A stretch of 58,535 bases of DNA, the filler included, from Sphacelaria rigidula (Eukaryota), in the NCBI GenBank assembly GCA_964200075.2. It is 4 parts of 4 records of this genome, joined end to end, with 100 filler letters (N's around TTAATTAATTAA, not from the genome) between each part and the next. Parts side by side here need not be neighbours in the genome. Positions count along the whole stretch, not along the records: positions 1 to 14,561 come from CAXNAA020002180.1; 3 more parts are not named here. One strand, 5' to 3'. The notes under the pieces are model-generated. The model worked only from the letters and a program-made list of their open reading frames with translations, was not told the DNA's origin and did not search any database. This document shows, piece after piece, positions 8,080 through 43,978 of the stretch. The first letter of the stretch is position 1. Each line of letters begins with the position of its first letter. The position numbers and the translations under genes were made by a program.

Positions 8080-8535
8080 AGTCCTCACAGGCCGCATAAA
8101 ACTCCGGAATGTGATCTTCGTCGGCCGCACCACCCTGTCAGCCTTGTAGATACGGTTGCTGCGCTCACCTGGCCGCGGGTGCCTCCGAAGGAATAAGCCG
8201 AGCCATTTTCGACCTTAGCCTACTGTCGGGTCCTATGGCACCGGTCGGTTGTCGCTCCAGAGTGCCATAGCCGCCTGTTTCAGGCCATCTCTATCCAGGC
8301 CCGTGACGAACTGCGGCAAATTTTCAGCATATTATCTTCGATGGAATTTTCTTCCCACCTCGACAGTACAGTACCTGGACCAACCCTGCCAGCAATGCCC
8401 ACGCTACCACTGACATGCTTCTGCAGCGAACCAACGAAGCTTTCAAAAGTCTTTGCAGTAGCATGGAAGGTCATGCCACCGCTGCGTACCGCTTCTACGG
8501 CCTCTGTTGCACGTTCTGGGTTTACTCTCTGCATG
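8080..8535 (-). pseudogene. pogo/Tigger-type transposase N-terminal remnant (psq HTH + CENP-B HTH)
   Basis: AVEAVRSGGMTFHATAKTF...SLQKHVSG...GPGTVLSRWEENSI resembles a psq HTH; downstream GRKWLGLFLRRHP matches the CENP-B HTH motif; stops and frameshifts lie between them; no DDE domain seen. Confidence 0.75.
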
Positions 8536-9114
8536 CTTAGCAACCCATCGACCAAAAAGCCGATTTCGAAAAAAGACACACACGCCCTTATTCACAGTGC
8601 TGTGGGATGGTGGTTTCTCATACAAAAGTCACGTGCAGTAGCTCAAAAGAAGCGTCGTGCTCTTGTGCACACGCAGAAAAAAACAGAATGGAAAAACGGT
8701 TAATATTTCGCGGAGTTATGGACGATTAAAACAAAGAGTACCTTAATTGCTACTGTACCGAAATTGGTACGTCTACTCTACGGATGTTCTGTTTTTCCTG
8801 GAACAAGAACACTCATGCACAAGACGATACCGAAACATTCACCACTCTCATGATTCACCGGTTCGTTGGTTGTTCGGTTGTTCGGCTGGTTGTTCGGTTG
8901 TTCGGTTGGTTTATTCTACGGTAGAAGATCATCATTCACATCCGCTACGAATACAATCGTCGTCACAAGATGGACTGCCGAAGGTAAGGTGCAGGGACAC
9001 TTGCCGAAGAAACTGCACGAAGGGTGAATGTGACAAGAGCACACCCTGGACAATACAATATGTTTCCAATATATATTAGTCGATCATATTGGAAGTTGCG
9101 ATATATTGCTGGTG

Positions 9115-9388
9115 TAATATATATTGGTACCCTTAGACTGCACATGTATTGCGCGCCCAATATATATTCATGTCGTGGGACTGCATACATATTGCCCGCC
9201 CAAAATATATTGGTACTATTGGGATGAACACATATTGTCCCATCAACATATATTGGGGCAGCGTGGGCGACAACATATTGCACAACCAATATATATATAT
9301 TAGGGTCGCATTGATGAGAACATATTGACCGGTCAACATATATTGGGTCTGCGTGGGTGACAATGTATTGGCCGGTCAATATATATTA
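9115..9388 (+). repeat. Phased array 1: CAAYATATATTG-N18/19-RTATTG-N6, 43-bp period, 7 motifs
   Basis: Motif starts at 9115, 9158, 9201, 9244, 9287, 9334, 9377. Confidence 0.85.
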
Positions 9389-9779
9389 GATATTGTAAGT
9401 ATCGTGTACGCTCTAGGAGAGATGCAGACGCGATGGATGCCGGAGCCCGTGAAGATTGGGAAAAGCTTTAAAGGGAGCCGCAGAAGTTCGCGTGCATTAC
9501 TGCGGAAAGTTGTCGAATGCGTTTGATACATATATGTGTGTGTATACCGGTTAGAAAATATGGTGACAGAAGAGGCGACGCGGTATATATATATATATGC
9601 CTCCTGATAACTATCTGGTGAACGGTGCGGGACGCCCATTCCCTTTCCAGCATGTAATATAAACCTCTTGGCTAAACATCACGATGACAGAAAACGCGGG
9701 TCGATATGCGCCTTTTGGTACCCCCGTGGTCACCGGGGCTGTGTTGCTTATACCCTGGACAATATAATATGTTCCAATA

Positions 9780-10110
9780 TGATACCAATACTTTGTATTA
9801 GAGCCAGCGCAAATATTGTCCTTTAAATATATGTTGTGTAGAGATGTCCTCGGAGATATTGAAGCAACAACATATATTGCTCGTGTCATGATCATGAAGT
9901 TGCTCCGAGAATAAAACATCCAATATATATTGTGCATGCCGGCCGTGTATGTATTGAAGTGTCAATATGTATATATTGAGTCGAGGCGATGCGTAGCATA
10001 TTGTTATCATAATATATATATTGAACGCAAACCAAGCAGAAGTATTGTTTTTCCAATATATATTGCGCACGCTGATCGGATAGCTATTGTGCAGCCAATG
10101 AATATTGAAC
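9780..10110 (+). repeat. Phased array 2 (more degenerate), ~43-bp period
   Basis: Motif starts at about 9824, 9867, 9921, 9963, 10010, 10053, 10096, downstream of the internal TIR copy. Confidence 0.7.
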
Positions 10111-10207
10111 ACGCTTGCGGAGGAATACACTGAGCATTTTCGGCATGTAAAATACGTCGTTGAGTGGCGACCGCGAACAAAGAACTGTCCACAATACTAA
10201 TTCCAAT

Positions 10208-10580
10208 GTGTGCTGTGTGTGTTGTTGTGTTGTCGTTTCATTTTTTCTGGGCGCCAGTCTACCCCTGTCGGGATATGTGGGCGCATCAGCCGGGGACACA
10301 CAGGAGGAAGGTCAACACAGGAGCTTTTCCTCTTTTCTTTGTTTTTAAAACCCTCCCTTCCTTCTGCGGTGCTTGCCTTTTTATTTTTTATCGCGAGAGG
10401 GGATCGGCCGTCCCGTTCCCTCGTCGACCGTCAAGTCGAATTTGTGTACCCACGACATAGTCGCTCTCCACTGTTGGGCATGGTGCAAGAAAAAATGCCA
10501 GATCGCTCCGGGAACCGAACCCCACAACTCAACCGTCAGAAGTTCACGAGGTTACCAACTGAGCCACCGGGGCGACCGGC
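10208..10580 (-). mobile_element. tRNA-derived SINE inserted in the TIR element
   Basis: Minus-strand head GCCGGTCGCCCCGGTGGCTCAGTTGG (A box) and GGTTCGGTTCC (B-box-like); CA/CAA-rich tail at ~10208-10232; ATTCCAAT on both flanks (10200-10207 and 10584-10591). Confidence 0.75.
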
Positions 10581-10679
10581 TTCATTCCAATACACTTTCC
10601 AATCTATATGTTGAAAATCAATATATTTTGCTACATCAACATGCATTGTGACCGTCGGTTCCCTCGTGCATTGTCCACC

Positions 10680-11029
10680 CAATATATATTGGCTGCATTG
10701 ACGCACGACATATCGGGGCGGCAATATATATTGGCGCGTCGGGTGTCGACTATATTGAATCGTCAATATATATTGACCTCGGGTGGCAGCAAATATAGTA
10801 CTCGACAAATATATATTGGTGCCTTCTCGCACCAACATATTACTCGGCCAATATATATTGAGGTGGCGCGTGTCGTGATATATTGTTCGGTCGATATATA
10901 TTGCATGTCGCGAGCCTTGATATATTGATGGCACAATATATATTGACCCTCTCTCGTGTCATCATATTGCTCGCCCAATATATATTGACCACCCGACGCC
11001 TCGATATATTGAGCGGGCGATATGTATTA
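10680..11029 (+). repeat. Phased array 3: 9 motifs at 42-43-bp period with mutually different GC-rich spacers
   Basis: Motif starts at 10680, 10722, 10764, 10807, 10849, 10892, 10934, 10976, 11018. Confidence 0.9.
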
Positions 11030-11293
11030 CATATTGTATTGTCCAGGGTGTGAATACTTTCGGTTCGAACCCACGGCCTCGTCTATGTTCAAGTTCGGAC
11101 AGGTTTTTGTGGTGGTATTGTGCTTTGGCATGTTTTCCGCTGCACAGAGACCCCGCTATTGTACTGCGGTAGCGCTTCATTCGCCTTCGATCCCTCCTGC
11201 AATAGTGTACAGGATGTTCCGTTCGCTAGGACTCTCTTGCAAGTGGTGCTGCAGTTGTTACGGTCAGCGTATATGTAGCGTCGTCTGAGTTGA

Positions 11294-11873
11294 ATGGAGG
11301 CAGCCTCTTTTTCTCCGGAGTGTGCACCCCCAACAAAAGCTCCGATCATTCTGCAAAGCGTGCCAACTGGCTTTCACACATTGCTCACGGCAGACTTCCC
11401 GCCGTTTTGGATTTGTGCTACCGTGAACAGTGAGTCTTCGCAAGAAGCACCACGCGAAGGACCTGACGGCCGACGTCGCAAAAGAGAGGTGCATCACCAA
11501 GCGCTGCTCCGAGCCGCCACATCACGGTACACAGGGCTACTCGGCGGAGTTCTGCTCCTAACATGCGACGGCGAGAGTGGTGAATGTGAAGAACAAGTGC
11601 GTTGACGAGGGCTGCTCCTTCAGACAGTCTCAAAGAGTAGCTGGGGGCAAGGAGGCGGAGTTCTGCTGTAAGCACGCCAGGGCGGGGATGGTAAACGTTG
11701 TGAACGAAAGTGCGGAAAAAAGGGTTGCTCAAAGCATTGTTCTTTTGGTGTAGTGGAAAGCAAGAATGCCGTTTGAGCACTCTAGGGCGAGAATGGTCAA
11801 TGTGGTCAACAAGAGGTGCGAAGACAAACGCTGCTTCAAACAGCCGTCTCAAGGAGTAGCTTGAAGCAAGAAG
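11294..11873 (+). pseudogene. Decayed 5' part of the EsV-1-7 repeat gene (probable original ATG plus ~4 broken repeats)
   Basis: GCGGAGTTCTGC (AEFC) and ATGGT.AAYGT (MVNV) units persist but are interrupted by frameshifts and stops (TAA ~11559, TGA 11862). Confidence 0.75.
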
Positions 11874-14522
11874 GTGGAGTTCTGCTTTGAGCGTACCAGG
11901 GCGGGAATGGCGGATGTTGCGAACAAGAGGTGCGGCGACGAGAGCTGCTCGAAGCATCCGTCTTTTGGTCTGGTAGGTAGCAAGAAGGCCGAGTTCTGCT
12001 CTGACCACGCCAGGTCGGGGATGGTTAATGTGGCGAGCAAGAGGTGCAGCGACGAGGGCTGCCTCACTCAGGCGTATTTTGGTCTAGTAGGAAGCAAGAA
12101 GGCCGAGTTCTGCTTTGAGCATGCCAGGACGGGGATGGCGAATGTTGTGCACAAGAAGTTTGGCCACGAGAGCTGCCCCAAACAGCCGTCTTTTGGTGTA
12201 GTGGGAAGCAAGAAAACGGAGTTTTGCTGTAAGCATGCCGGGGCCGGGATGGTAGACGTGAGAAGCAACAAGTGCGGCTACGAGGGCTGCTTCACGGAGC
12301 CGTCGCATGGTGTTGTGGGAAGCAAGAAGGCGGAGTTGTGCTCCAAACATGCCATGGCGGGGATGGTAAATGTGTTAAAAAAGGGGTGCGGCTACGAGGG
12401 CTGCTCGAAACATCCGTCCTTCGGTATAGCGGGAAGCAAGAAAGCGGAGTTTTGCTGTGAGCATGCCATGGCCGGGATGGTGGACGTGAGAAGCAAGAAG
12501 TGCGGCTACGAGGGCTGCTCCACGAAGCCGTCTTTCGGTTTAGTGGGAAGCAAGAACGGGGAGTTCTGCTCCAAGCACGCCATGGCGGGGATGGTGAGTG
12601 TGCGCAACAAGAAGTGCGGCTACGAGGGCTGCTCGACACAGGCGTCTCATGGATTGGTGGGCAGCAAGAAGGCGGAATTCTGCTTCGAGCATGCCAGGAC
12701 GGGAATGGTGAATGTTGGGAACAAGAAGTGCGGCTTCGAGGGCTGCTCCCTTCAGGCGTCTTTTGGTGTAAAGGGAAGCGAGAGAGCGGAGTTCTGCTCC
12801 AAGCATGCCAGGCCGGGGATGGTGGACGTGGGAAGCAAAAAGTGCGGCTACGAGGGCTGCTCCACGAAGCCATCTTATGGTGTGGTGGGAGACAAGAAAG
12901 CGGAGTTCTGCTTCAAGCATGCCATGGCGGGGATGGTGAATATCCGAGTTGGTATATGCGGCTACGAGGGCTGCTCCACGAAGCCAGCTTATGGTGTAGT
13001 GGGAAACAAGAAGGCGGAGTTCTGCTGCAAGCACGCCATTGCGGGAATGGTGGATGTTCGAGTTGGTACGTGCGGCTACCAGGGCTGCTCAAAACACCCG
13101 TCTATCGGTTCAGCGGGAAGCAAGAATGCGGAGTTCTGCTCCAAGCATGCCAGGTCAGGGATGGTTGATGTTGTGAACAAGAACTACAGCAACGAAGGAT
13201 GCTCCACGAAAGCGTCTTTTGGTGTAGCGGGAAGCAAGAAAGCGGAGTTCTGCTCCAAGCATGCCATGGCGGGAATGGTGAATTTGGTGAGCAAGAAGTG
13301 CGGCCACGATGGCTGCTCGACTCACGCGTCGTTTGGTGTAGTAGGAGGCAAGAAGGCGGAGTTCTGCTCCAAGCATGCCATGGCAGGGATGGTGAATGTC
13401 CGCGTTGGTATGTGCGGCCAAGACGGCTGCTCAAAGTATCCGTCTTTCGGTGTAGCGGGAAGCAAGAAGGCGGAGTTCTGCTTCAAGCATGCCATAGCGG
13501 GGATGGTGAATGTTCGAGTTAGTATGTGCGGCTATGAGGACTGCTCGACTCAGGCGTATTTTGGTGTGGTGGGAAGAAAGAAGGCGGAGTTTTGCTCCAA
13601 GCATGCCATGGCTGGGATGGTAAATGTCCGAGCTATCATGTGCGGCTATGAGAGCTGCTCAAAGCGTCCGTCTTTTGGTGCAGCCGGAAGCAAGGCGAAG
13701 TTCTGCTCCAAGCATGTCATGGCGGGGATGATGAATGTCCAAGTTGGTACGTGCGGCTACAAGGGCTGCTCTACTCGGCCGTCTTTTAGTGTTGTGGGAA
13801 GCAAGAAGGCGGAGTTCTGCTGCAAGCATGCCATTGCGGGGATGGTGGACGTGAAAAACAAGAAGAGCGGCTGGGAGGGCTGTTCTACTCAGGCATCTTA
13901 TGGAGTAGCTGGAAGCAAGGCGGAGTTCTGCTTCGAGCATTCCAGGGCGGAAATGATGAATGTTGTGAGCAAGACGTGCAGCTATGACGGCTGCTCTACT
14001 AAGGCGTTATATCGTTTAGTGGGAAGCAACAAGGCGGATGCCTGCTCCAAGCATGCCAGGGCAGAAATGTTGGATGTGGTGAACAAGAACTACAGCAACG
14101 AGGGATGCTCCAGCAGGTGGTCGTACGGTGTCGCGGGCAGCGCAAAGGCAGAGTTCTGCTCTGAGCATGCCACGGCGGTAATGGTGAATATGGGGAGCAA
14201 AACGTGCGGTGCAGTGGGGTGCTCCAAATGGGTTATCCACAAGAAGCACACCGTTGGTGAGGCGACGGTTTGCCGAGAACACGCTAGTGCACGCAACACA
14301 GCTGCGGTGTCTGATACCGCGAAGCTCAACACTGGGGAGGGCGCCCCCGGCCGTGGCCCGACGGAGGCCAGTGGAGAACGCGTTGCTGATGTACGAGGAA
14401 CAAAACGCACGCGCGCGGCATTCTCGGGCCCTGTTGCAAACGACTTTGGTGCTCGCCGCAATGCCGATGCCGGTCCCAGGCAGGGTGTAAGAATGCCGTT
14501 AACAACAAATTGTGAGAATTGA
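11874..14522 (+). CDS. EsV-1-7 cysteine-rich repeat protein, ~21 tandem 38-aa repeats, intronless ORF
   Basis: 882-codon ORF of GMVNVxxKKCGYEGCSxxPSFGVVGSKKAEFCSKHA units (C-x4-C-x16-C-x2-H), the EsV-1-7 motif of phaeoviruses and brown algae; first in-frame ATG at 11907; low-complexity basic C-terminus. May be part of a pseudogene. Confidence 0.9.
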   Translation: MEFCFERTRAGMADVANKRCGDESCSKHPSFGLVGSKKAEFCSDHARSGMVNVASKRCSDEGCLTQAYFGLVGSKKAEFCFEHARTGMANVVHKKFGHESCPKQPSFGVVGSKKTEFCCKHAGAGMVDVRSNKCGYEGCFTEPSHGVVGSKKAELCSKHAMAGMVNVLKKGCGYEGCSKHPSFGIAGSKKAEFCCEHAMAGMVDVRSKKCGYEGCSTKPSFGLVGSKNGEFCSKHAMAGMVSVRNKKCGYEGCSTQASHGLVGSKKAEFCFEHARTGMVNVGNKKCGFEGCSLQASFGVKGSERAEFCSKHARPGMVDVGSKKCGYEGCSTKPSYGVVGDKKAEFCFKHAMAGMVNIRVGICGYEGCSTKPAYGVVGNKKAEFCCKHAIAGMVDVRVGTCGYQGCSKHPSIGSAGSKNAEFCSKHARSGMVDVVNKNYSNEGCSTKASFGVAGSKKAEFCSKHAMAGMVNLVSKKCGHDGCSTHASFGVVGGKKAEFCSKHAMAGMVNVRVGMCGQDGCSKYPSFGVAGSKKAEFCFKHAIAGMVNVRVSMCGYEDCSTQAYFGVVGRKKAEFCSKHAMAGMVNVRAIMCGYESCSKRPSFGAAGSKAKFCSKHVMAGMMNVQVGTCGYKGCSTRPSFSVVGSKKAEFCCKHAIAGMVDVKNKKSGWEGCSTQASYGVAGSKAEFCFEHSRAEMMNVVSKTCSYDGCSTKALYRLVGSNKADACSKHARAEMLDVVNKNYSNEGCSSRWSYGVAGSAKAEFCSEHATAVMVNMGSKTCGAVGCSKWVIHKKHTVGEATVCREHASARNTAAVSDTAKLNTGEGAPGRGPTEASGERVADVRGTKRTRAAFSGPVANDFGARRNADAGPRQGVRMPLTTNCEN

Positions 14523-14561: not shown

Positions 14562-14661
14562 NNNNNNNNNNNNNNNNNNNNNNNNNNNNNNNNNNNNNNN
14601 NNNNNTTAATTAATTAANNNNNNNNNNNNNNNNNNNNNNNNNNNNNNNNNNNNNNNNNNNN
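14562..14661. other. Artificial contig linker (N44-TTAATTAATTAA-N44)
   Basis: Identical 100-nt spacer occurs three times; the 12-mer gives stops in all six frames. Confidence 0.97.
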
Positions 14662-24590: not shown

Positions 24591-24762
24591 ATAAACGTTT
24601 ATTAAGAGGAACCCGCTGGTTTCTAGAAGAGGTTTTTCAGCTGTTGACAGCTGCGGAAAAATTATATCAAAATTTGAACACAGCAGTGTGCACACTGTAA
24701 CGTGAGGGAGCTCGCTGGCAACGAAGAGACGGCTAGGTTGGCTGGAACTGTTACGTGCAGCT

Positions 24763-26466
24763 ATGGCAATGCGCAAGAAAGTGGGTGATGGCGATGCAGG
24801 CGAAGAGGTGAAGTTTAAGTTTACTGAGCTTATGCCTGCAGGATCGCTGAAAGCCCCAGAGTACGGACGGCACTTTAGCGAAAATGCGTCCCGACGTTTT
24901 TATCAGAAATACGTCGAGTATGAAGAGGCGGTCAAAATGAACAACAAAGGACGTAGCATGCAGGCCGTCTTATTGACTGTTTCTGAACTGGTGCCGAGGC
25001 ACATCCGTGCGTGTTTGTCACGCGAAATTTTTGACGGATCCGTGCTTGACGAAGATGATCTCAAGGAGGCACTAGGCCGACACGCGAAATGTTGGGAGGA
25101 TGAAGAGATTGATCCTTCAGTTGCTGTTGCTGGTGTGCGGAAAGCGTTGGCTGCCCGCAACGAGCAAACTGCAATGGGAAGAATAGAAGGGCAGTGGGGT
25201 GCCCTGGAGGAACTTTTTGCGGAGAATACTAGCGCTGAGCGTGCGTTCTGCGATGATGCAGATTTCAAACCAGGACCCGCTCAGATCATAACTCGGGAAA
25301 TCTTGAATGGACTGACCCCCCCCGAATTCAAAACTAAAGTCCTCAACATGTTGAACATGAAAGGGGGGTGGAAGGAGGACCCTGGGCTTGTGTTTAACAC
25401 GGCTCGGGAAGCAGCGGAGGCATGGAAGACGGTGGAAGCGGCGGATAAGCAGCGCCATCAGCAGCCGCAGCTGAAACAAAGGAGTGGCAACGGGACTTCC
25501 GGAAGCAAGCGCCAACCAAATGGTGGAAAAACGGCGAGCGGTGGAAATGGGACTACCAGTTCCGGAAAAACCCGCAAATCAGGCCCAAGCTATTCAGGTT
25601 GTTTCTCATGTGGAGACAAAGGCCACTTCGTGAAGGGTTGTAAGCAGCAAAGCCAAGCTGCTGCTCCACAACATACTACAGGTGGGCAGTCGAAGGCCGG
25701 CGACACGCAGCAGCAACAACAGCAGCTGTCGCATGGCCCTGGACAGGTGCCTCGCGGAGGGGGCACGAGTCCCGCCCCTACAAGGGCTGTCTTCTCAGCC
25801 GATGGACAAAGTGCTCTCAGCGGGGGGGCGACGTTGCCACCAGAACCGGTCGTTTCTACTGGTGGCGTGCAGCAGACCATCTCATCGCACTCTTTCCCGG
25901 GTTCGAACTCTGCGACGGTGCCAGCATGGAGATCGCTTAAAGCGGGTGAGGTGTCAGGGTTTCAATCTGAGGATCTGCAAGTAGATCACAAGGAAAGGTG
26001 GTATCTTGCCGACTTGTCTGTCCCGAGTGCAGGGGCAAAGGGTGTTTGTCCGGTCAAGGCTATTTTAGATTCAGGATCTGGACTTACGACCATGTCAGTG
26101 GATGTAGCGGCGAAATTACAAGCTATGGTTCCAGATGTTCGAGTGGTCACACCGATGGTTGATGAACAGCTGGTGACACTGGCTAACGGCAATGTTGAGC
26201 GCGTGAAGCAGAAAACTTGCCCTGTCCGAACCGCTTTACACACCAGCTGGGGACCGGTTGTGCTGGACCCATGTTCATATGTAGTCATGCCGGGTACAGA
26301 TGATGTGATCATCATGGGAAGCCCTACGCTGGAGACGCTGGGCATTGACGTGTTCAGTAGCTTAGGTGCCTGTGCACGTGCAAGAAACACTTCGGTGCGA
26401 GGTGTAAACACGCCTGATTTTACGGACTGTCAGCGTGTCAGTACCGCGGTTGACGCTTTACAGTAA
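24763..26466 (+). CDS. gag: Retrotransposon Gag + aspartic protease
   Basis: 567-aa ORF with CCHC knuckle CFSCGDKGHFVKGC and protease motif AILDSGSG. Confidence 0.88.
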   Translation: MAMRKKVGDGDAGEEVKFKFTELMPAGSLKAPEYGRHFSENASRRFYQKYVEYEEAVKMNNKGRSMQAVLLTVSELVPRHIRACLSREIFDGSVLDEDDLKEALGRHAKCWEDEEIDPSVAVAGVRKALAARNEQTAMGRIEGQWGALEELFAENTSAERAFCDDADFKPGPAQIITREILNGLTPPEFKTKVLNMLNMKGGWKEDPGLVFNTAREAAEAWKTVEAADKQRHQQPQLKQRSGNGTSGSKRQPNGGKTASGGNGTTSSGKTRKSGPSYSGCFSCGDKGHFVKGCKQQSQAAAPQHTTGGQSKAGDTQQQQQQLSHGPGQVPRGGGTSPAPTRAVFSADGQSALSGGATLPPEPVVSTGGVQQTISSHSFPGSNSATVPAWRSLKAGEVSGFQSEDLQVDHKERWYLADLSVPSAGAKGVCPVKAILDSGSGLTTMSVDVAAKLQAMVPDVRVVTPMVDEQLVTLANGNVERVKQKTCPVRTALHTSWGPVVLDPCSYVVMPGTDDVIIMGSPTLETLGIDVFSSLGACARARNTSVRGVNTPDFTDCQRVSTAVDALQ

Positions 26467-29220: not shown

Positions 29221-29320
29221 NNNNNNNNNNNNNNNNNNNNNNNNNNNNNNNNNNNNNNNNNNNNTTAATTAATTAANNNNNNNNNNNNNNNNNNNNNNNN
29301 NNNNNNNNNNNNNNNNNNNN
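29221..29320. other. Artificial contig linker
   Basis: Same 100-nt spacer. Confidence 0.97.
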
Positions 29321-43878: not shown

Positions 43879-43978
43879 NNNNNNNNNNNNNNNNNNNNNN
43901 NNNNNNNNNNNNNNNNNNNNNNTTAATTAATTAANNNNNNNNNNNNNNNNNNNNNNNNNNNNNNNNNNNNNNNNNNNN
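43879..43978. other. Artificial contig linker
   Basis: Same 100-nt spacer. Confidence 0.97.

What the first reader, a model, noticed from the sequence alone, without database searches (positions are those of the whole stretch)
9040..11052. TIR element with three precisely phased motif/variable-spacer arrays (42-43-bp period)
Seen: about 23 units of palindromic CAATATATATTG + 18-19 nt GC-rich variable spacer + ATATTG half-site + 6 variable nt. In array 3 the intervals are 42,42,43,42,43,42,42,42 while the spacers are mutually unalike (e.g. GCGCGTCGGGTGTCGACT, GTGCCTTCTCGCACCAAC, CATGTCGCGAGCCTTGAT, ACCCTCTCTCGTGTCATC). Motif and spacing are therefore conserved while spacer sequence is free, and 42 bp is four helical turns. 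The arrays at both ends point the same way although the 23-bp TIRs are inverted. Established: CACTA, hAT and other transposons carry subterminal transposase-binding repeats. Inference: a phased protein-loading or DNA-bending scaffold; less likely, a processed repeat-spacer RNA array.
Basis: partly seen in the sequence, partly recalled or inferred. Interest (0 to 1): 0.72.

Follow-up and report, generated by a model that had tools for sequence, protein, structure and literature searches.

The report
Defective transposon with phased binding-site arrays
This is a worn, non-coding copy of a very abundant cut-and-paste transposon in a brown-alga-like genome, and its regularly spaced AT-rich palindromes are most likely docking sites for the transposase, a known kind of structure in a family not yet described.

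Summary
Perfect 24-bp inverted repeats sit at 9040-9063 and 11029-11052. Of 24 near-matches to CAATATATATTG in the 58.5-kb window, 23 lie between them. Gaps between cores are 30 or 31 nt in 19 of 22 cases, while the spacers are no more alike than random sequence.

- A second, degraded left terminus at 9749-9772 heads the middle array.
- 10208-10583 is a nested tRNA-like SINE flanked by an 8-bp duplication.
- The element is a high-copy family. Public-run contigs stop matching at the inverted repeats and carry the same spacers at 85-95% identity. Their majority letters restore the motif where this copy has lost it.

So the spacers differ between units but are fixed within the family; they do not turn over.

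Best reading (0.7): a non-autonomous, inactive DNA transposon whose subterminal arrays are transposase or accessory-protein binding sites, selected for motif and spacing. Binding itself is inferred, not shown.

The superfamily is open. CACAC termini and structured subtermini fit brown-algal EnSpm/CACTA best, with hAT second. No target-site duplication and no autonomous copy could be found.

A repeat-spacer RNA array is not supported. This is a new member of a known kind, of moderate-to-low interest.

The parts
9040..9063 (+). Left terminal inverted repeat (CACAC terminus); its inner part carries CAATA-CAATAT, the array half-site
   Evidence: Perfect 24-bp complement of 11029-11052 (I1). Contigs of other copies start matching at 9039/9040 (records 11 and 26).
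9064..9400 (+). Array 1: 8 cores (9067, 9115, 9158, 9201, 9244, 9287, 9334, 9377); 6 of its 7 inter-core gaps are 31 nt and the first is 36 nt
   Evidence: The two-unit block 9223-9296 is repeated at 9313-9386 with 80% identity (D4).
9401..9748 (+). Internal filler with no motif; includes (TA)7 at 9584-9598; also multi-copy
   Evidence: Summed depth is 11,000-92,000 against 50-80 in the flank (table 2). No Pfam hit on the long stop-to-stop frames I submitted across the element.
9749..9772 (+). Second, degraded left-type terminus (TATA in place of CACA, T in place of C at 9765), internal to the element
   Evidence: (D11, I4). The majority letter at 9765 in other copies is C, as in the outer repeat. 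The 3 listed contigs that reach it all bridge it (records 2, 12, 18).
9773..10107 (+). Array 2: 7 cores (9825, 9868, 9921, 9963, 10010, 10054, 10096), looser, with TA slippage in two cores and one 41-nt gap
   Evidence: Only the terminus and about 12 further nt align with array 1.
10108..10207 (+). Internal sequence up to the SINE insertion point; 10200-10207 is ATTCCAAT, the first copy of the SINE's target-site duplication
   Evidence: Joint 10199->10584 with 8 shared letters in all 4 runs (table 5).
10208..10583 (-). Nested SINE, not part of the transposon family: tRNA-like head, T-run, (CA)n-like tail
   Evidence: Other copies skip it (table 5). Summed depth is 0.8-1.7 million (table 2). 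ARAGORN calls a tRNA-like fold only at a relaxed threshold and none at default. Rfam gives no match.
10584..11028 (+). Second copy of the SINE duplication (10584-10591), then array 3: 10 cores (10619, 10680, 10722, 10764, 10807, 10849, 10892, 10934, 10976, 11018); of its 9 inter-core gaps, 6 are 30 nt, 2 are 31 nt and the first is 49 nt
   Evidence: An organism-B contig covers 10584-10985 with 19 differences and 0 gaps (record 15).
11029..11052 (-). Right terminal inverted repeat
   Evidence: I1. A contig of another copy matches up to 11052 and then runs on unlike (record 21).

Best explanation
9040-11052 is an old, immobile, non-autonomous copy of a class II (cut-and-paste, TIR) DNA transposon family that is very abundant in this brown-alga-like genome.

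Each end carries 340-440 bp of subterminal repeats. The unit is [CAATAT|ATATTG palindrome]-N18/19-[ATATTG half-site]-N6.

Proposed mechanism (inferred):
- The transposase, or a TNPA-like accessory protein made by an autonomous relative elsewhere, recognises the CAATAT half-site. That half-site also sits in the inner part of the TIR.
- The protein loads cooperatively as dimers on the palindromes, plus a further subunit on each half-site. This brings the CACAC tips together for cleavage.
- Lineages that transpose keep the motif and the 30/31-nt gap, while the G+C-rich filler drifts to randomness.
- All arrays read the same way, so the two ends differ when read inward from their tips. On the left the extra half-site lies 18 nt inside each palindrome; on the right it lies 6 nt inside. 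This would let the machinery tell left from right.

The arrays grew by occasional tandem duplication of units. After its last move this copy took in a SINE and lost several motif letters.
For: Shown:
- Perfect 24-bp TIRs.
- 23 of 24 near-consensus cores in the window lie inside the element.
- About 30,000 contigs per run were laid on the 8600-11500 stretch (most of them probably on the SINE). Summed depth inside the element is 20,000-110,000, against 50-80 in the flank at 8794-8987. Similarity stops at 9039/9040 and 11052. The tool warns that summed depth is not a copy number.
- The family also occurs under a second organism label (X10, 68 contigs).
- No Pfam family on the 4 long stop-to-stop ORFs I submitted from inside the element, and no transposase among the 43 tested from the window.
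- Cores are 93% conserved, spacers are at random identity, and 19 of 22 gaps are 30-31 nt.
- Of 14 listed majority-letter differences inside arrays and termini, 10 turn this copy's deviant letter back into the motif or the TIR: 9169, 9204, 9247, 9765, 9825, 10100, 10101, 10644, 10714, 11019. The other 4 are in spacers (9224, 9840, 10007, 10035). Only the best-supported 40 of 373 rows were shown (table 3).
- The half-site CAATAT lies inside the TIR.
- A two-unit duplication at 80% identity shows that arrays grow by tandem duplication (D4).
- Gap lengths cluster by array: 31 nt in 6 of 7 gaps of array 1, 30 nt in 6 of 9 gaps of array 3.

From papers (passages read):
- Ac transposase binds multiple subterminal AAACGG hexamers cooperatively, and these are needed for excision (PMC3260210).
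- TNPA binds En/Spm subterminal repeats, which are cis-determinants. CACTA subtermini are asymmetric and have AT-rich and GC-rich portions (PMC2613891).
Against: - No binding protein, autonomous copy or transposase was found. The window has none, and no genome is held.
- There is no target-site duplication at either the L/R or the L'/R boundaries. At the exact outer boundaries the 2-nt flanks are AG and AA.
- The spacers are saturated relative to each other. If the units share ancestry, that needs either a very long-lived lineage or pressure against spacer similarity.
- The period is 43.0 bp in array 1 and 42.3 bp in array 3, so strict helical phasing across a whole array is not shown.
- The evidence on other copies comes from one tool call on assembled contigs. 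I saw tables, not sequences.
Confidence: 0.7

Rival explanations
1. Hitch-hiking minisatellite. The arrays are a 42-43-bp tandem repeat that expanded inside a short TIR element and was split by later insertions. It has no role in transposition, and the period is simply inherited from the duplicated unit.
For: - All three arrays have the same orientation, as pieces of one former array would.
- Gap lengths cluster by array.
- A recent two-unit duplication exists (D4).
- TRF scores the arrays as 42-43-bp tandem repeats with 65-72% matches.
Against: - A neutral minisatellite decays evenly. Here cores are 93% conserved while spacers are at random identity (0.275 against 0.265) and still 61% G+C, so AT-ward mutation cannot explain the contrast.
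- Lengths stay at 30-31 nt in 19 of 22 gaps despite saturated substitution.
- The half-site recurs inside the TIR.
- The family's majority letters restore the motif.
Confidence: 0.12
2. RNA or structure-level role. Read-through transcripts of the arrays fold into long hairpins through the self-complementary cores and feed small-RNA silencing of the family, or the palindromes extrude as cruciforms. The arrays persist for that reason.
For: Array 3 folds far better than shuffles: -134.2 against -100.7 kcal/mol, z = -6.5, 0 of 100 shuffles as good.
Against: - Any set of identical 12-nt palindromes gives this result, so the score is a by-product of the motif.
- The stems are A/U-only.
- Silencing of a transposon would not select for keeping motif and spacing in the transposon's own lineage.
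- No Rfam family reaches its threshold (the best two hits have E = 0.38 and 0.9).
Confidence: 0.07
3. Adaptive repeat-spacer array (CRISPR-like) whose spacers are acquired and processed.
For: Only the outward look of conserved repeats alternating with unlike spacers of fixed length.
Against: - The spacers are identical by descent across hundreds of copies and in a second organism label.
- The array sits between transposon TIRs in a eukaryotic genome.
- Three scans of the viral and prokaryote collections, two with the TIR and one with a two-core unit pattern, found nothing.
Confidence: 0.01

Closest known systems
EnSpm/CACTA (CMC) elements, especially the brown-algal families curated for Ectocarpus (EnSpm-1/2 and EnSpm-N1 to N3_Ec32; PMC12477816, supplementary file 1, read) and En/Spm and Tgm of plants (PMC2613891, passages)
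   Same: - CAC-type termini: the Ectocarpus families have CACCC, CACAG, CACTG or CACCG with 20-25-bp TIRs; here CACAC with 24 bp.
- Asymmetric, highly structured subterminal repeats with AT-rich and GC-rich portions.
- 'Complex palindromes in subtermini' (EnSpm-N1_Ec32).
- Tandemly repeated ends (EnSpm-2_Ec32), comparable to the doubled left terminus here.
- Nested non-LTR insertions fixed in copies.
   Different: - The 2-bp (Ectocarpus) or 3-bp (plants) target duplication is not seen here (AG and AA).
- The plant motifs are 12-17 bp in mixed orientation and irregular spacing. Here there is a strict 42-43-bp unit with three half-sites, all arrays in one orientation.
- No matching transposase is known.
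hAT elements: Ac/Ds of maize (PMC3260210, passages) and hAT-2_Ec32 / hAT-2_ESi of Ectocarpus (PMC12477816, supplementary file 1)
   Same: - Short TIRs plus multiple subterminal short repeats within a few hundred bp of each end. These bind transposase cooperatively and are needed for excision.
- Non-autonomous derivatives with unrelated filler.
- hAT-2_Ec32 has the same CACAC-GTGTG termini and a 21-bp TIR, and its single copy also lacks a visible duplication.
   Different: - No 8-bp duplication.
- The Ac hexamers are irregularly spaced and in both orientations.
- I could not obtain the hAT-2 sequence to compare beyond the five terminal letters.
Short TIR elements with internal tandem repeats, and Foldback elements (recalled, not read here)
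   Same: Short TIR elements largely made of tandem repeats.
   Different: Foldback arrays are inverted at the two ends and their units are homogeneous. Here the arrays are direct and the units share only the motif.
Earlier scan finding e1-2578110: a Mutator-like end repeat array in a rotifer
   Same: A conserved short core with drifting spacers next to a transposon end, read as transposase landing pads.
   Different: Different genome, motif, period and superfamily. I did not check it here.

Membership tests
Class II TIR (cut-and-paste) DNA transposon, non-autonomous | Terminal inverted repeats | tested here: met
   Perfect 24-bp pair at 9040-9063 and 11029-11052.
Class II TIR (cut-and-paste) DNA transposon, non-autonomous | Many dispersed copies whose similarity ends at the TIRs | tested here: met
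   The depth step falls at the TIRs. Contigs start at 9039/9040 and end at 11052, then run on unlike. Only tables were seen, not sequences.
Class II TIR (cut-and-paste) DNA transposon, non-autonomous | Target-site duplication flanking the copy | tested here: not met
   no direct repeat of 2-11 nt at the exact boundaries of either L/R or L'/R. This could reflect decay of a 2-nt duplication (AG and AA) or recombination between copies. It needs other copies to settle.
Class II TIR (cut-and-paste) DNA transposon, non-autonomous | No transposase gene of its own | tested here: met
   No Pfam match on the 4 long stop-to-stop ORFs I submitted from inside the element.
EnSpm/CACTA (CMC) superfamily | CAC(TA)-type termini | tested here: inconclusive
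   The terminus is CACAC. Curated brown-algal EnSpm families show CACCC, CACAG, CACTG and CACCG, but hAT-2_Ec32 shows CACAC as well.
EnSpm/CACTA (CMC) superfamily | 2-3-bp target-site duplication | tested here: not met
   AG and AA, or GAG and AAT.
EnSpm/CACTA (CMC) superfamily | Reiterated, asymmetric subterminal repeats | tested here: met
   compared with the PMC2613891 passages.
EnSpm/CACTA (CMC) superfamily | Autonomous partner encoding a CMC-type DDE transposase | not testable with these tools
   No genome is held. Scans of three collections found no relatives.
hAT superfamily | 8-bp target-site duplication | tested here: not met
   GACAAGAG and AATACTTT match at 2 of 8 positions.
hAT superfamily | hAT transposase in an autonomous partner | not testable with these tools
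   Same reason as for the EnSpm partner.
Foldback elements | Long inverted termini built of tandem repeats in opposite orientation | tested here: not met
   The arrays at both ends are direct. Only 24-37 nt are inverted.
CRISPR-like repeat-spacer array | Spacers that differ between individuals or copies and are acquired | tested here: not met
   Spacers are shared at 85-95% identity by other copies and by a second organism label (table 8).

The most novel reading that the evidence does not exclude
The arrays are a length-locked molecular ruler: a protein filament of the transposase or an accessory factor assembles on three half-sites per 42-43 bp across 350-450 bp at each end. Spacer sequence is not merely free but is kept dissimilar, which would protect the array from slippage and recombination. 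The same-sense arrays at oppositely oriented termini encode left/right end identity. Among eukaryotic TIR elements this would be an unusually regular end architecture, closer to the ordered multi-site ends of Tn7 or Mu than to Ac or En/Spm, and it would give a clean system for studying spacing rules of transpososome assembly in brown algae.
Probability: 0.2. Interest if true: 0.5.

Novelty: new member of a known kind. Interest (0 to 1): 0.3.

Why it matters
Brown-algal transposons are little studied, and the one curated library I could read (Ectocarpus, PMC12477816) leaves 51 DNA families unclassified.

This family shows an unusually clear separation of selected parts (a 12-nt palindrome, a 6-nt half-site and a 30/31-nt gap) from unselected filler. 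It effectively hands over the binding motif and spacing rule of an unknown transposase or accessory protein.

That makes three things easy:
- finding the autonomous partner;
- classifying the family;
- designing binding and excision assays.

Practically, the family and its nested SINE are abundant enough to matter for repeat masking and annotation near genes. This copy lies about 0.8 kb upstream of a 20-repeat EsV-1-7 open reading frame.

Tried and rejected
- **Whole genome of the window:** none is held. I could not collect copies, find an autonomous element or read target-site duplications.
- **Metagenome contigs, 19-nt terminus:** 9 loci (L001-L009), all chance hits in unrelated, mostly coding-looking DNA. 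All 9 have 0 AATATATATT cores, and the 8-nt core ends occur once in one locus (L009) and nowhere in the other eight.
- **Viral contigs:** the two-core unit pattern and the terminus gave 0 hits each.
- **Genome contigs:** the unit pattern and the 21-nt terminus gave 0 hits each.
- **Rfam on 8500-11600:** only two sub-threshold hits, E = 0.38 and 0.9.
- **ARAGORN at default settings:** 0 tRNA genes in the window.
- **Pfam:** on 4 and then 43 long ORFs, only EsV-1-7 and a weak aspartyl protease.
- **Shared sub-motif in spacers:** not significant.
- **Target-site duplication with boundaries shifted by up to 3 nt:** nothing convincing.
- **Papers:**
  - No paper holds CAATATATATTG.
  - 12 papers hold a 12-mer from the terminus; the 10 listed are unrelated biomedical titles.
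  - The five supplementary files of PMC12477816 held as text contain neither the terminus nor the motif and no 'subterminal'. The consensus library itself is not among the files I could see, so a match there cannot be excluded.
  - The search for 'subterminal repeats' + 'transposon' + 'brown alga' listed one paper holding all three terms, an unrelated plant genome paper.
- **Sequencing runs:** no RNA holder is listed. One run guessed to be RNA (X6) has contigs on the element, but it may be DNA, so nothing is concluded about expression.
- **Earlier scan notes:** none for this genome or these sequences.
Full report
**1. What is in the sequence**

The window looks eukaryotic and brown-alga-like.
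- It has few long ORFs.
- A 20-repeat EsV-1-7 cysteine-motif ORF lies at 11874-14522 (Pfam E = 4.9e-289). Passages of PMC12477816 describe this domain as expanded in brown algae and otherwise known mostly from giant viruses.
- The public runs that hold the region are labelled with a coded organism or 'algae metagenome'.
- No whole genome is held.

Termini. A perfect 24-bp inverted repeat closes 9040-11052 (I1). The 20-nt terminus occurs three times in the window, against none in each of 100 shuffles. The third copy, at 9753-9772, points the same way as the left end.

Core motif and spacing.
- Of 24 sites within two mismatches of CAATATATATTG in 58.5 kb, 23 lie inside the element.
- Adding one core with a 4-nt slippage insert (9963) and one 3-mismatch core (11018) gives 8 + 7 + 10 cores in three arrays.
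- The unit is palindrome, 18-19 nt, ATATTG, 6 nt. The half-site is exact at its expected place in 17 of 23 units.
- Core-to-core gaps are 30 or 31 nt in 19 of 22 cases, and 36, 41 and 49 nt in the rest.
- Every other length change is TA slippage inside a core.

Spacers.
- They are 61% G+C.
- Ungapped, they are as unlike as random sequence: 0.275 identity against 0.265 expected. Cores are 93% conserved.
- Allowing small shifts leaves a faint excess (0.388 against 0.366; 0 of 500 shuffles reach it). One pair at 81% contributes most of it. That pair belongs to a two-unit duplication, 9223-9296 and 9313-9386, at 80% identity.
- No sub-motif is shared by the spacers beyond chance.

**2.

I laid contigs of four public runs on 8600-11500.

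(a) The element is a high-copy family.
- About 30,000 contigs per run were laid for the two runs X1 and X3.
- Summed word depth is 20,000-110,000 across 9040-11052. It is 50-80 in the flank at 8794-8987 and 200-640 beyond 11122.
- The tool warns that summed depth is not a copy number, so 'hundreds to about a thousand copies' is only my rough inference.
- Matches of other copies begin at 9039/9040 (records 11, 26) and end at 11052 (record 21), which fixes the ends at the TIRs.

(b) 10208-10583 is a nested SINE on the minus strand.
- Contigs in all four runs join 10199 to 10584 with 8 shared letters.
- The window shows the duplication ATTCCAAT at 10200-10207 and 10584-10591.
- Its summed depth is 0.8-1.7 million.
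- It has a tRNA-like head seen only at a relaxed ARAGORN threshold (none at default; no Rfam hit), an internal run of T, and a (CA)n-like tail.

(c) The spacers are fixed family sequence.
- Contigs cover the arrays at 85-95% identity with few gaps.
- Record 15, from a second organism label, covers 10584-10985 with 19 differences and 0 gaps.
- Record 27 covers 9170-9359 with 12 differences.
- Only 36-38 of about 30,000 laid contigs per run (X1, X3) fit two places, so these matches are in register.

(d) The family consensus has better motifs than this copy.
- Of 14 listed majority-letter differences lying in arrays or termini, 10 restore the motif or the TIR: 9169, 9204, 9247, 9765, 9825, 10100, 10101, 10644, 10714, 11019.
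- The other 4 are in spacers.
- Only 40 of 373 rows were printed, so this is not an unbiased sample.

(e) The second left terminus is internal to the family.
- The three listed contigs that reach 9749 all bridge it (records 2, 12, 18).
- It has three changes from the outer TIR, while the outer pair is perfect.
- Arrays 1 and 2 are not recent duplicates of each other. Only the terminus and about 12 further nt align.

**3. Explanation**

The element carries no coding capacity: the long ORFs I submitted from inside it have no Pfam match. It is therefore a non-autonomous TIR transposon. It is now inactive, with a SINE inside it, eroded motifs and no recognisable target-site duplication.

The strong contrast between conserved cores and gap lengths on one side and random spacers on the other cannot come from neutral decay of a minisatellite. 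It cannot come from AT-ward mutation either, because the spacers remain G+C-rich. Selection in a transposon lineage acts on the cis-requirements for transposition.

The half-site also lies in the inner part of the TIR (CAATA-CAATAT). This is the usual bipartite layout, with a cleavage-proximal tip and an inner binding site.

By analogy I infer that the arrays are cooperative binding sites for the family's transposase or an accessory protein.
- Ac transposase binds subterminal hexamers cooperatively, and they are required for excision (PMC3260210, passages).
- TNPA binds the En/Spm subterminal repeats, which are cis-determinants and are asymmetric between the ends (PMC2613891, passages).

The arrays run in the same sense at both ends. 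Read inward from their tips, the ends therefore differ: the half-site lies 18 nt behind each palindrome on the left and 6 nt behind it on the right. This is a plausible basis for left/right identity.

Arrays grow by unit duplication. This is shown by the 80% two-unit repeat and by gap lengths clustering by array: 31 nt in 6 of 7 gaps of array 1, 30 nt in 6 of 9 gaps of array 3.

'Four helical turns' holds only roughly, since the periods are 43.0 and 42.3 bp.

Binding, cooperativity and end discrimination are all inferred, not shown.

**4. Rivals**

- A functionless internal minisatellite fits the common orientation. It does not fit the motif/spacer contrast or the length lock.
- An RNA or cruciform role rests on a fold score (z = -6.5) that any set of identical palindromes would give.
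- A CRISPR-like array is contradicted by the fixed spacers.

**5. Comparison with known families**

The curated Ectocarpus library notes (PMC12477816, supplementary file 1) list two relevant groups.
- EnSpm families have CACCC, CACAG, CACTG or CACCG termini, 20-25-bp TIRs, 2-bp duplications, 'complex palindromes in subtermini' and tandemly repeated ends.
- hAT-2_Ec32 has CACAC-GTGTG termini, a 21-bp TIR and no visible duplication in its single copy.

The present element shares features with both. Here the 2-nt flanks are AG and AA, and the 8-nt flanks match at 2 of 8 positions. Neither membership test is met, and the transposase test cannot be run.

My split is EnSpm-like about 0.4, hAT about 0.25 and other about 0.35.

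I found no paper or supplement holding the motif or the terminus. The library's consensus sequences were not among the files I could read.

An earlier scan note (e1-2578110) describes an analogous binding-site array at a Mutator-like end in a rotifer. I did not test it.

**6. Verdict**

The structure is real, clean and statistically unambiguous. The kind is ordinary: subterminal repeat arrays of a non-autonomous DNA transposon.

The family appears undescribed, and its regularity is above average. That makes it a convenient handle on an unknown brown-algal transposase.

Interest 0.3; novelty: new member of a known kind.

Noticed in passing
window 10208-10583 (minus strand), duplication at 10200-10207 and 10584-10591: A 376-bp SINE nested in the transposon. 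It has a tRNA-like head (A- and B-box-like; ARAGORN calls tRNA-Gln-like only at a relaxed threshold), an internal T6 run, a (CA)n-like tail and an 8-bp target duplication ATTCCAAT. Its summed contig depth is 10-30 times that of the transposon, so it is probably among the most abundant repeats of this genome. [quoted passage not shown]
   Followed up: partly
window 11874-14522 (+): An 882-aa ORF made of 20 EsV-1-7 cysteine-rich motifs (Pfam PF19114, E = 4.9e-289), seen at DNA level as a 114/228-bp tandem repeat. The transposon lies about 0.8 kb upstream of it.
   Followed up: partly
window 8600-8793: Another high-copy repeat (summed depth 30,000-79,000 in X1 and X3) that ends near 8793. About 250 bp of low-copy DNA separates it from the transposon (table 2).
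   Followed up: no
window 11053 joined to 9541 in another copy: One X1 contig joins the right end (11053), through 10 other letters, to position 9541 of the internal filler (table 5c). Another (X3) joins 9203 to 9834, that is, array 1 to array 2. These suggest head-to-tail or recombined copies elsewhere in the genome. They remain unexplained.
   Followed up: no
window 9900-10015: Other copies skip 69 or 114 nt after 9900, or carry other letters there (tables 5, 5c). This is where array 2 has its one 41-nt gap and lacks a half-site. The place is variable within the family.
   Followed up: no
window 24706-26463 (+): A 586-aa open frame with a weak retroviral-type aspartyl protease match (PF13650, E about 5e-4, below the curated cut-off). 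It is probably a retroelement remnant.
   Followed up: no
window 14562-14661, 29221-29320, 43879-43978; also 18214, 34197, 54762: Runs of N come as pairs of 44 N separated by 12 bases, recurring every 14,658-14,659 bases, plus three short runs of 9-10 N. The regular spacing suggests masking or an assembly or preparation artefact rather than biology.
   Followed up: no
window 8859-8911: A short tandem repeat of CGGTTGTT / 20-nt units just upstream of the element.
   Followed up: no
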